From: a virus
UHGV virus genome: UHGV-0287902
Length of the DNA stretch: 38,964 nucleotides
Reading direction: 5' to 3' (one strand)
Shown here: positions 5,003 to 5,851 of the stretch, piece by piece
Position numbering within the stretch: position 1 is the first letter of the stretch
Layout of the letters: every line of letters starts with the position of its first letter
Notes under the pieces: generated by a model
What the model was told of the DNA's origin: nothing
The model's database searches: none
Seen by the model: only the letters and a program-made list of their open reading frames with translations
Made by a program: the position numbers and the translations under genes

Positions 5003-5284
5003 GTGAAACGAAATCTCATTGCATGGGCGTGGTCGAGTGGTCTTATTGAGTTTGGTTACGTCCTGCCGGAAGGTGCATTGCCGATAGTTGCCGGAAAGCC
5101 TGCCACGGTACGGCATGTGATTGAGGTTATGGCGCGTCATGGACGTGATGAACAGGAGCAGTTACTGGTTCCGGGGATACCGGAAGCGGTGACGGAGGAA
5201 GAAGCCTTTAATGCCATGATTCGGTTCTGCCGTGAGGTCAGACGCCGGGTCAGTTATCCAAACAGAACGAGGACCAGAGGATGA
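5003..5284 (+). CDS. hypothetical early protein
   Basis: 93 aa; GTG start preceded by GGAGG; overlaps previous stop. Confidence 0.55.
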   Translation: MKRNLIAWAWSSGLIEFGYVLPEGALPIVAGKPATVRHVIEVMARHGRDEQEQLLVPGIPEAVTEEEAFNAMIRFCREVRRRVSYPNRTRTRG

Positions 5285-5553
5285 GTAAAGTCGTACGCAT
5301 TATTTTCGAATACAAGGAGCACGTTATCCATAAAAACCCTGATGGAACAGTGCGCATGGGGGTAAGTCTGGACATACGTTCAACCGGGATAAAGCAGAAA
5401 GGTGATGGACCCGCCATGATTTTTGGGGTGGTTATGCTCGCGGAAAGCAGAGACTTTGCTGAACTTGTGGCAATGAAAGCCAGTGCGCTCATGAAAGATA
5501 TGAGCATGCGTTCCGGGGTTATTAAAGGTAATGAATTTAATCAACAGGGGTAA
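5281..5553 (+). CDS. hypothetical early protein, paralog 1 (N-terminus MSKVVRIIFEYKEH)
   Basis: 90 aa; ATGA overlap with previous gene; N-terminus shared with next ORF. Confidence 0.6.
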   Translation: MSKVVRIIFEYKEHVIHKNPDGTVRMGVSLDIRSTGIKQKGDGPAMIFGVVMLAESRDFAELVAMKASALMKDMSMRSGVIKGNEFNQQG

Positions 5554-5557
5554 TTCC

Positions 5558-5851
5558 ATGAGCAAAGTACGCGTTATTTTTGAATTTAATCATGTTTCGC
5601 ATGACGAAAAGTTGGCAGGCAATGACTGTGTTGAAGTGCATGAAAAGATTGGAGTGGATGTGAAAACAGAACGTGATACGGATAACAGGCCGACGTCACT
5701 CTGTGACGTTTATGCAAGTATTCTCCAGTATCACAGTCCTGCAATTATTCAGTTTCTCTCAGCGGAATTTCAGGCATCTGCACAGTCTTTTGGAGCGGAT
5801 GCCATCATTAAACGCCACCGCGTGCATAAAGCATCAGGCACACTGCAATAA
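5558..5851 (+). CDS. hypothetical early protein, paralog 2 (N-terminus MSKVRVIFEFNH)
   Basis: 97 aa from ATG 5558 with AGGGGG RBS; track ORF begins 5531. Confidence 0.6.
   Translation: MSKVRVIFEFNHVSHDEKLAGNDCVEVHEKIGVDVKTERDTDNRPTSLCDVYASILQYHSPAIIQFLSAEFQASAQSFGADAIIKRHRVHKASGTLQ

What the first reader, a model, noticed from the sequence alone, without database searches (positions are those of the whole stretch)
5281..5851. Tandem paralogous small early genes
Two adjacent ORFs begin with nearly identical N-termini (MSKVVRIIFEYKEH versus MSKVRVIFEFNH) and then diverge, indicating a tandem duplication of an early gene with subsequent divergence. Function unknown.
Basis: seen in the sequence. 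Interest (0 to 1): 0.35.

Follow-up and report, generated by a model that had tools for sequence, protein, structure and literature searches.

The report
Diverged paralog pair in Mu-like prophage
Two neighbouring small early genes of an E. coli Mu-like prophage (Sp18 type) are real but very diverged copies of one uncharacterised phage gene family; this is an ordinary kind of phage gene duplication and their function is still unknown.

Summary
Gene A (5281-5553, 90 aa) and gene B (5558-5851, 97 aa) lie 4 nt apart in the early operon of a Mu-like prophage. They sit between kil/orf93 and gam, and the window is 97.5% identical to Sp18 of E. coli O157:H7 Sakai (A = ECs_4950, B = ECs_4951).

BLASTP sees only the N-terminus (11/17, E 0.004). 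Profile methods carry the homology much further. hhalign of the A family against a diverse B-family profile gives 95.6% probability, E 1.2e-8, over A1-77 / B1-81. An Edwardsiella homologue matches both profiles. A local jackhmmer run started from B reaches A.

B is the conserved member: it is single-copy in every other Mu-like lineage examined, next to gam in all but the Muvirus phage vB_YpM_5. A occurs only in Sp18-type E. coli prophages and is always followed by B. Phage Mu gp7 (E6) is probably a distant member (76%, E 2.3e-5).

Both genes are under purifying selection (dN/dS 0.31 and 0.42). The shared 5' ~30 nt also marks the edge of allele swaps and of a single-copy hybrid.

No Pfam, NCBIfam, PDB or Foldseek match exists, and the AlphaFold models are weak. 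Function is therefore only inferred: small non-enzymatic binding proteins. Ordinary; low-moderate interest.

The parts
5281..5553 (+). Gene A (90 aa, pI 9.45), the lineage-specific, strongly diverged copy. It is the ortholog of ECs_4950 (NP_312977.1) of prophage Sp18. Its ATG overlaps the stop of the upstream orf93 (ATGA).
   Evidence: ORF and sequence. phrog_4107, E 4.4e-61. 41 close homologues, all E. coli. dN/dS 0.31. Sakai annotation. pI.
5558..5851 (+). Gene B (97 aa, pI 6.27), the conserved family member. It is the ortholog of ECs_4951 (NP_312978.1). It starts 4 nt after A's stop, and its Shine-Dalgarno sequence (AGGGG) lies in A's last codons. Its stop is 11 nt before gam.
   Evidence: phrog_2230, E 1.8e-38. 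Homologues at 25-30% identity in other Mu-like prophages, always single-copy and just upstream of gam or DUF3164. dN/dS 0.42.
5281..5316 (+). 5' conserved segment of A (codons 1-12, MSKVVRIIFEYK). It encodes the first beta-strand motif V-x-[VI]-I-F-x-[FY].
   Evidence: DNA alignment. Codon table. Codons 1-17 have dN/dS 0.13 at dS 0.32, which indicates protein-level constraint.
5558..5590 (+). 5' conserved segment of B (codons 1-11, MSKVRVIFEFN). It is a direct repeat of the A segment (about 90% identical, one codon shorter). It is also the left boundary of the B1/B2 allele cassette and contains the junction of the single-copy hybrid in E. coli STEC299.
   Evidence: Identity profile of window against L034: about 100% up to ~5589, 50-77% over 5590-5830, 97% again from ~5860. 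Hybrid 5' end in L172.
5003..5284 (+). orf93 (ECs_4949 ortholog, phrog_1518), the upstream neighbour, translationally coupled to A. It is a variable cassette, deleted except for its last ~75 nt in many relatives.
5863..6393 (+). gam (host-nuclease inhibitor Gam, PF07352), the downstream neighbour and synteny anchor of the family.
   Evidence: Pfam E 5.5e-42. 57% identical to Mu Gam.

Best explanation
A and B are two diverged members (paralogues) of one family of ~87-100-aa early proteins found in enterobacterial Mu-like phages.

**Shown**
- They sit head-to-tail in the early operon, in the order MuB - orf75 - kil - orf93 - A - B - gam. Overlapping or nearly abutting start and stop codons suggest they are co-transcribed and translationally coupled (this part is inferred from the anatomy).
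- B is the ancestral, conserved member. It is present as a single copy in every other lineage that has the family, next to gam (or DUF3164) in all but vB_YpM_5.
- A is an extra copy confined to Sp18-type E. coli prophages.
- A keeps the ancestral upstream junction (ATGA overlap with orf93) and the ancestral N-terminal length. Apart from that it has diverged to about 10-17% identity.
- Both genes are kept by purifying selection.

**Inferred: origin of the second copy**
- Tandem duplication in the Sp18 lineage followed by fast divergence of the upstream copy: about 0.4.
- Juxtaposition of two already diverged alleles by recombination: about 0.35.
- An older duplication with repeated loss: about 0.15.

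**Inferred: how they work (low confidence, about 0.35)**
- They are small, soluble, non-enzymatic proteins with no signal peptide, no membrane segment and no catalytic motif.
- They would act stoichiometrically early in the lytic cycle by binding a host or phage macromolecule.
- The conserved N-terminal strand and long beta-hairpin would form the structural or oligomerisation core.
- The variable hairpin tip and C-terminal part would set partner specificity, so that two copies give two specificities.
- They are accessory rather than essential.
For: **Homology**
- hhalign of the A family against a 15-sequence B-family profile containing no A sequences: 95.6%, E 1.2e-8, A1-77 / B1-81. Earlier, shallower profiles gave 83% and 86%.
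- B-family HMM against A: 17.9 bits, versus at most 8.0 bits in 1000 shuffles.
- With the N-terminus removed the alignment keeps the same register and narrowly exceeds all 200 permuted controls, 19.6 versus 19.4.
- The Edwardsiella anguillarum homologue (L091) matches the B profile at 1.4e-15 and the A profile at 3.8e-4 over A5-71.
- Local jackhmmer started from B includes the A family in round 3 and converges.
- Both AlphaFold models share the same predicted N-terminal hairpin.

**Distribution**
- A is always followed by B in the ~40 distinct IMG/VR contigs and in 216 complete E. coli genomes.
- A single B-type copy sits next to gam or DUF3164 in L081-L089, L090, L091, L105 and L172.
- Only 3 of 80 Gam-anchored loci from other species hold any family member.
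- The exhaustive search of 1.84 billion representatives found only 11 proteins at E <= 1e-3.

**Selection**
- dN/dS is 0.31 for A and 0.42 for B.
- A codons 1-17 give 0.13 with dS 0.32, so the N-terminal motif is kept at the protein level.

**Ancestral junction**
- orf90/93 overlaps the family gene by ATGA in L081, L083 and L172, as it does with A in the window.

**Accessory status**
- Frameshifted, truncated and fused copies occur in prophages.
- The Mu region between B and C is described as semi-essential (PMC4553209).
Against: - Pairwise identity outside the N-terminus is only 6-11 of 63 aligned positions. BLASTP sees nothing there.
- The last ~13-16 residues of each protein are not aligned by any method.
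- The AlphaFold models are of low confidence (pLDDT 63.9 and 56.9) and disagree in the C-terminal half: A is strand-helix-strand, B is helix-helix. Fold identity is therefore not shown.
- A is no closer to its neighbour B than to distant B lineages outside the first 17 residues. This is awkward for a recent in-situ duplication.
- Nothing supports any particular function. There is no Pfam, NCBIfam, PDB-sequence or Foldseek match and no literature on ECs4950/4951.
Confidence: 0.75

Rival explanations
1. The two genes are unrelated. Only the N-terminal dozen residues look alike, either by chance or because both need an efficient translation start (MSK..., A/T-rich early codons).
For: BLASTP finds only 11/17 N-terminal residues at E 0.004 for one comparison. 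MSK/MAK starts are common: gam starts MAKR and Mu gp7 starts MAKV. There is no DNA similarity beyond ~33 nt.
Against: - Profile-profile alignment extends to A77/B81 at 95.6%.
- The signal persists without the N-terminus.
- A bridging sequence matches both profiles.
- The V-x-V-I-F-x-F strand is conserved in family members whose first residues differ (MSNKAQ..., MVR..., MAK...).
- Synonymous changes accumulate in these codons while the peptide is kept.
Confidence: 0.05
2. A and B have common ancestry, but there was no in-situ duplication. The pair arose when recombination between two Mu-like phages placed two long-diverged alleles of the same gene side by side. The alternative version is that the body of A was imported from an unsampled lineage.
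For: - Outside the first 17 residues A is equally distant from all B lineages, and more distant than any two B lineages are from each other.
- The locus demonstrably swaps alleles. The B2 allele (about 58% aa identity) sits in a background that is otherwise 97-100% identical, with breakpoints at the conserved 5' ~30 nt and at the gam junction.
- Chimeric B1/B2 proteins exist, for example P0047.
Against: - No phage with an A-type gene alone was found in any collection searched.
- A's N-terminus resembles that of its own neighbour more (8/16) than that of other lineages (2-5 identities in 13-17 aligned positions).
- The 5' homology patch explains replacement or deletion, but not the creation of a tandem.
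Confidence: 0.35
3. The near-identity of the two 5' ends is kept at the DNA level. It would result from gene conversion between the repeats, or from the segment acting as a recombination joint (module boundary), rather than from protein function alone.
For: - About 90% nucleotide identity over ~33 nt, against no detectable similarity elsewhere.
- The left breakpoint of the B1/B2 cassette falls at the end of this segment.
- The single-copy gene of E. coli STEC299 has A-type codons 1-4 and the A-type upstream region, followed by a B-type body. That is the expected product of a crossover within the repeat.
- The GTT ATT TTT core is the same codon string in most lineages.
Against: - Within the A family these codons carry many synonymous differences: dS 0.32, higher than the gene average of 0.21, with dN/dS 0.13. 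The peptide, not the DNA, is what is kept.
- The STEC299 arrangement is equally what an unduplicated ancestor would look like, because distant single-copy lineages have the same ATGA junction and N-terminal length.
Confidence: 0.2
4. Functional rival: the family acts on phage DNA transactions rather than on a host target. Examples are a helper of replicative transposition (the genetically defined 'arm' function of the Mu early region) or a partner of Gam in DNA-end protection.
For: - The family gene is next to gam in every lineage examined except vB_YpM_5.
- A is basic (pI 9.45).
Against: - The family gene is retained where gam is replaced by a DUF3164 gene (L081, L087).
- In Muvirus phages the family member sits two genes away from gam.
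- Most Gam-carrying Mu-like prophages (77 of 80 species loci) lack the family.
- B is not basic (pI 6.27), and no DNA-binding domain is detected.
Confidence: 0.2

Closest known systems
ECs_4950 and ECs_4951 of prophage Sp18 (Mu-like) in E. coli O157:H7 Sakai
   Same: The same genes in the same order (ECs_4949 - 4950 - 4951 - gam), at 97.5% nucleotide identity over window 5003-6000.
   Different: Nothing of substance. Both are annotated only as 'hypothetical protein', and no paper in the searchable library mentions them.
PHROG families phrog_4107 (A) and phrog_2230 (B)
   Same: A matches phrog_4107 end to end (E 4.4e-61). B matches phrog_2230 end to end (E 1.8e-38). Both are listed as unknown function.
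   Different: PHROGs keeps them as two separate families. The link between them comes from the profile-profile and bridging-sequence evidence found here.
Phage Mu gp7 (E6, AAF01086.1; phrog_10252) and its positional counterpart gp14 (QKE55392.1) of Yersinia phage vB_YpM_5
   Same: - Similar size (87-89 aa), in the early operon between kil and gam.
- vB_YpM_5 gp14 is a clear family member (40.3 bits, E 1.6e-14) and occupies exactly the gp7 slot of a Muvirus.
- The Mu gp7 family profile aligns collinearly with the B-family profile (76%, E 2.3e-5, 70 columns) and hits phrog_2230 weakly (E 0.009).
   Different: - Mu gp7 has no significant match to A, and its single-sequence scores are weak (6.6 bits).
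- In Mu the gene is single-copy and separated from gam by gp8 and gp9.
- Its function is also unknown.
Small early accessory proteins of Pseudomonas Mu-like phages (Tip of D3112, Aqs1 of DMS3); recalled from memory, not tested here
   Same: Small proteins encoded in the early region of transposable phages that act by binding host proteins. This is the kind of mechanism proposed here.
   Different: No sequence relation was detected or tested. This is an analogy of genomic position and size only.
beta-beta-beta-alpha-beta topology (HicB N-terminal / partial RNase H-like)
   Same: The AlphaFold model of A has this order of elements. The best, non-significant Foldseek hits are pieces of RNase H-like and COMM domains.
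   Different: No Foldseek hit reaches E 0.001. The model is low-confidence. There is no Pfam HicB match. The B model gives helix-helix instead. This is not a membership claim.

Membership tests
One protein family containing both A and B (paralogy) | Statistically significant sequence similarity beyond the N-terminal motif | tested here: met
   hhalign 95.6%, E 1.2e-8, 77 columns. With the N-terminus removed the same register scores above all 200 permuted controls, narrowly (19.6 vs 19.4). A[18-90] against the B HMM ranks third against 1000 shuffles.
One protein family containing both A and B (paralogy) | Intermediate sequences that match both groups | tested here: met
   The L091 (Edwardsiella) protein matches the B profile at 1.4e-15 and the A profile at 3.8e-4 over A5-71. 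jackhmmer started from B reaches A in round 3.
One protein family containing both A and B (paralogy) | Same three-dimensional fold | tested here: inconclusive
   Both models share the N-terminal hairpin (A E4-18/E24-38, B E4-19/E25-39). They differ after residue ~45, and pLDDT is 63.9 and 56.9.
Tandem duplication in situ | Single copy in outgroups, two adjacent same-strand copies in the ingroup, flanks unchanged | tested here: met
   orf90/93 - gene - gam in L081, L083 and L172, against orf93 - A - B - gam in the window and 216 E. coli genomes.
Tandem duplication in situ | The extra copy is most closely related to its neighbour | tested here: not met
   Outside residues 1-17, A is equally distant from all B lineages (6-11 of 63). 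Only the N-terminus is closer to the neighbour (8/16 against 2-5 identities in 13-17 aligned positions).
PHROG phrog_4107 / phrog_2230 | Full-length match to the family HMM | tested here: met
   A: residues 1-90 on profile 1-90/90, E 4.4e-61. B: residues 3-97 on profile 1-88/89, E 1.8e-38.
Phage Mu gp7 (E6) family, phrog_10252 | Significant profile match and equivalent genomic position | tested here: inconclusive
   B family against Mu gp7 family: 76%, E 2.3e-5, collinear over 70 columns. Positional equivalence holds through vB_YpM_5 gp14. A against the Mu gp7 family is not significant.
Gam host-nuclease inhibitor (PF07352) | Match to the Pfam model | tested here: not met
   A and B have no Pfam hit at E <= 1. 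Only the downstream gene 5863-6393 matches.
Any curated domain or solved structure | Hit in Pfam, NCBIfam, PDB sequences or Foldseek (PDB, BFVD) | tested here: not met
   Searches gave no hits. The best PDB-sequence E-value was 0.16. Foldseek found nothing at E <= 0.001.

The most novel reading that the evidence does not exclude
The A/B locus could be a cassette-exchange hot spot for counter-defence or host-targeting specificity modules of enterobacterial Mu-like phages. In this reading the conserved first ~30 nt of each gene has two roles: it encodes the structural N-terminal strand, and it serves as the homology patch through which divergent gene bodies are swapped, deleted or stacked in tandem. 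The A+B pair would then be two stacked specificities, possibly forming heterodimers through the shared hairpin. The whole family, including the long-unassigned Mu gene E6 (gp7), would be a new class of small phage inhibitors.
Probability: 0.15. Interest if true: 0.55.

Novelty: new member of a known kind. Interest (0 to 1): 0.3.

Why it matters
Tandem, fast-diverging small genes in phage early or accessory regions are common, so the finding is not surprising in itself.

It has three modest uses:
- It merges two, and probably three, catalogued 'unknown function' PHROG families (4107, 2230 and likely 10252) into one family.
- It probably gives phage Mu's unassigned early gene E6 (gp7) a set of relatives.
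- It points to a small locus in the widespread Sp18-type prophages of pathogenic E. coli (232 of 5426 complete genomes). This locus shows allele replacement in otherwise near-identical phages, a pattern often seen for host-interaction or counter-defence genes, and it would be easy to test genetically.

Tried and rejected
**Domain and structure searches**
- Pfam, NCBIfam and per-member Pfam scans gave no hit for A or B. One member hit SpoVS at E 0.16, judged noise.
- The PDB sequence-profile search found nothing; the best hit was a ribosomal protein at E 0.16.
- Foldseek of both models against PDB and BFVD gave nothing at E <= 0.001. The hits were generic RNase H-like and COMM pieces, and I do not read function from them.

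**Collection searches**
- tblastn of A and B against 50,697 phage records found only two Stx phages carrying an inserted Mu-like phage, and nothing in Mu itself.
- The first genome-contig scan with the shallow B alignment found nothing.

**Sequence-level tests**
- An out-of-frame or overprinting origin for A is rejected: tblastn and blastn of one gene against the other find nothing beyond the 5' end.
- Direct hhalign of Mu gp7 as a single sequence against the A or B profiles was not significant. Only the gp7 family profile gave a moderate match to B.

**Literature**
- Searches on the Mu early region, Sp18 and ECs4950/4951 found nothing about these genes.

**Arguments considered and dropped**
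- I considered treating the P0036 A::B fusion as evidence of homology. It is rejected because it is a simple deletion between short TTTTGG microhomologies.
- I considered a parsimony argument that STEC299 must have lost A. It is dropped because B alleles are exchanged by recombination.

Full report
**Setting.** The window is a complete Mu-like prophage.
- Left end: a c-type repressor (414-1127, minus strand), ner (1166-1414), transposase A (1416-3506) and MuB (3578-4510).
- Then a run of small early genes: orf75 (4507-4734), a Kil-family gene (to 5001), orf93 (5003-5284), gene A (5281-5553), gene B (5558-5851) and gam (5863-6393, PF07352, E 5.5e-42).
- Right end: gin, a 684-aa SASA/DUF6645 gene and mom.
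- The region 5003-6000 is 97.5% identical to prophage Sp18 of E. coli O157:H7 Sakai. There A is ECs_4950 and B is ECs_4951, both annotated 'hypothetical protein'.
- Of 5426 complete E. coli genomes, 232 carry the region and 216 carry it at >= 80% coverage.

**Checking the observation.** The two N-termini are exactly as quoted.
- B's real start is the ATG at 5558, which all relatives use. The in-frame ATG at 5531 lies inside A.
- A's ATG overlaps the stop of orf93 (ATGA). B starts 4 nt after A's stop, with its Shine-Dalgarno sequence in A's last codons. gam follows 11 nt after B. The anatomy is that of one translationally coupled early operon.
- BLASTP of A against B finds only 11/17 N-terminal identities (E 0.004 for one comparison).
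- At DNA level ~33 nt are about 90% identical with one codon indel. Nothing is detectable beyond that, in any frame.

**Is the resemblance more than the N-terminus?** Yes.
- Close homologues of each gene are all from E. coli. A first profile-profile comparison gave 83% probability over residues 1-34 only.
- An exhaustive HMM search of 1.84 billion representative proteins with the B profile found just 11 proteins at E <= 1e-3. Five of them were full-length homologues at 25-30% identity starting MSNKAQVIFTFE....
- Adding these raised the A-B match to 86% over 66 columns.
- A Gam-anchored scan of one genome per species gave 80 loci. Only three held a family member (Edwardsiella anguillarum, Kluyvera, and an Enterobacteriaceae isolate).
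- tblastn added gp14 of Yersinia phage vB_YpM_5.
- Against this 15-sequence profile, which contains no A sequences, the A family aligns at 95.6% probability, E 1.2e-8, over A1-77 / B1-81.

Controls:
- The B HMM scores A at 17.9 bits, against at most 8.0 bits for 1000 shuffles.
- With the first 17 residues cut off, hhalign recovers the same register. Its score of 19.6 is narrowly above all 200 column-permuted controls (maximum 19.4).
- The Edwardsiella protein matches both the B profile (1.4e-15) and the A profile (3.8e-4, A5-71).
- A local jackhmmer started from B takes in the A family in round 3 and then converges.

Shared landmarks are the V-x-V-I-F-x-F first strand, a second strand ending in Gly, a Gly-Pro before a hydrophobic segment, a helix, and a Gly after it.

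The AlphaFold models are weak (pLDDT 63.9 and 56.9). Both place a long hairpin at residues 4-38/39, and they disagree afterwards.

**Copy number and synteny.**
- In the ~40 distinct IMG/VR contigs of Sp18-type phages, A is always followed by B.
- In five more distant Mu-like prophage lineages there is one B-type gene directly upstream of gam, or of a DUF3164 gene that replaces gam. It lies after kil, with or without the orf93 homologue. The same holds in the three species loci.
- A was never seen alone, apart from one locus cut off by a contig end (L077).
- One close relative, E. coli STEC299 (CP022279.1), has a single gene. It carries A's upstream junction and A-type codons 1-4, followed by a B-type body that is 82% identical.
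- That arrangement is either the unduplicated state or a deletion of A by a crossover in the 5' repeat. Distant single-copy lineages share the ATGA junction and the N-terminal length of A, so A appears to keep the ancestral 5' context.

**Selection and recombination.**
- Across 18 distinct A and 24 distinct B alleles, dN/dS is 0.31 and 0.42, so both are maintained as proteins.
- In A codons 1-17, dN/dS is 0.13 while dS (0.32) is above the gene average. The N-terminal peptide, not the DNA, is conserved.
- A's hairpin-tip region (codons 18-44) is the least constrained (0.61).
- B has two allele types, about 58% identical in protein. In a phage otherwise 97-100% identical to the window, identity falls to 50-77% between ~5590 and ~5830 only. 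That stretch runs from the end of the conserved 5' segment to the gam junction.
- Chimeric alleles exist. The locus therefore exchanges gene bodies by recombination, and the conserved 5' segment is a breakpoint.

**Origin of the second copy.** Outside residues 1-17, A is about equally far from every B lineage (6-11 of 63). It is further from them than they are from each other. Only its N-terminus is closer to its own neighbour. This leaves three possibilities that I cannot separate:
- in-situ duplication followed by very fast divergence of the upstream copy;
- recombinational stacking of two diverged alleles;
- an old duplication with repeated loss.

**Relation to phage Mu.**
- Mu has no BLAST-detectable homologue.
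- Mu gp7 (E6, 87 aa) hits phrog_2230 weakly (E 0.009) and the B HMM collinearly (6.6 bits).
- In the Muvirus vB_YpM_5 the gp7 slot is filled by a clear family member (40.3 bits, E 1.6e-14), whereas its sibling vB_YpM_3 has a Mu-type gp7 there.
- A profile of 14 gp7 homologues aligns with the B-family profile at 76%, E 2.3e-5, over 70 collinear columns. It does not align significantly with A.
- Mu gp7 is therefore probably, not certainly, a distant member. Its function is unknown too.

**Function.** Nothing known matches:
- no Pfam or NCBIfam family;
- no PDB sequence;
- no Foldseek hit at E <= 0.001 in PDB or BFVD;
- no paper on these genes.

The proteins are small, have no obvious long hydrophobic segment or catalytic motif, and differ in charge (pI 9.45 and 6.27). 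[quoted passage not shown] Frameshifted, truncated and fused copies in prophages show the genes are dispensable for lysogens.

My best guess is inference only. These are stoichiometric binding proteins made early in lytic growth. The conserved hairpin would be the core or oligomerisation element. The variable tip and C-terminal part would be the specificity surface. The allele swapping hints at a host-interaction or counter-defence role. A role in Mu-type DNA transactions is the main rival. Weighing against that rival, the family persists where gam is replaced, and 77 of 80 Gam-carrying loci lack the family.

**Verdict.** The case is an ordinary lineage-specific extra copy of a small, fast-evolving, uncharacterised phage early gene. 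Two modest extras are the probable link to Mu E6 and the recombination behaviour of the conserved 5' segment.

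Noticed in passing
window 5590-5830 compared with L034 4033-4273: B exists as two allele types (B1 as in the window; B2 about 58% identical in protein). 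In an otherwise 97-100% identical phage, identity drops to 50-77% only inside the B body. The breakpoints are at the end of the conserved 5' ~30 nt and at the gam junction. Chimeric B1/B2 proteins such as P0047 also occur.
   Followed up: partly
L172 2501-2797 (E. coli STEC299, CP022279.1): This is a single-copy locus. The gene has A's upstream junction and A-type codons 1-4 (ATG AGT AAA ATC), followed by a B-type body 82% identical to B. It is either the unduplicated state or a precise deletion of A by a crossover in the 5' repeat.
   Followed up: partly
protein P0036 (E. coli, 67 aa): This is an A::B fusion protein. A residues 1-49 (...PAMIFG) are joined to the last 18 residues of B (ADAIIKRHRVHKASGTLQ). 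It looks like a deletion between short TTTTGG microhomologies.
   Followed up: no
window 5003-5284 (orf93); L031 3600-3740: orf93 is a presence/absence cassette. In many relatives all but its last ~75 nt is deleted, so kil abuts the remnant. Gene callers then give A a 26-residue N-terminal extension (116-aa forms P0001 and P0013, starting MKLLHGSALSSGQ...). Whether that extension is translated is unknown.
   Followed up: partly
window 5003-5284: orf93 and its relatives are labelled 'host nuclease inhibitor' in PHROG 1518 and in the Sakai annotation (ECs_4949). However, they have no Pfam Gam match or any other Pfam hit. The label may have been transferred from the neighbouring gam.
   Followed up: no
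L081 5303-5941; L087 3303-3941: In some related Mu-like prophages the gam slot is occupied by a 212-aa DUF3164 (PF11363) gene. The B-type gene upstream is retained.
   Followed up: no
C-termini of family members (L081, L083, L086, L087, L089, L091, L105, vB_YpM_5 gp14, Mu gp7): Nine of twelve lineages end in a histidine directly before the stop. Both CAT and CAC codons and both TAA and TGA stops are used. The Sp18-type A (...NQQG) and B (...GTLQ) and L090 lack it. This is unexplained.
   Followed up: partly
P0051, P0060, P0062; L043, L077, L080: Several prophage copies of A or B are frameshifted or truncated. This is consistent with the genes being dispensable in lysogens or with decaying prophages.
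   Followed up: no
window 34422-36476 (+): A 684-aa ORF lies between gin (33764-34336) and mom (38099-38836). It has a SASA carbohydrate-esterase domain (E 1.5e-13) and DUF6645 (E 4.1e-67). It looks like an accessory (moron-like) gene not present in Mu at this position.
   Followed up: no
window 7591-8142 (+): This 183-aa early ORF has a weak Myb-like DNA-binding signal (E 4.5e-4, below the Pfam cut-off). Mu gp9 (E8), which sits just upstream of gam in Mu, hits transcription-regulator PHROGs. The two may be related, but this was not tested.
   Followed up: no
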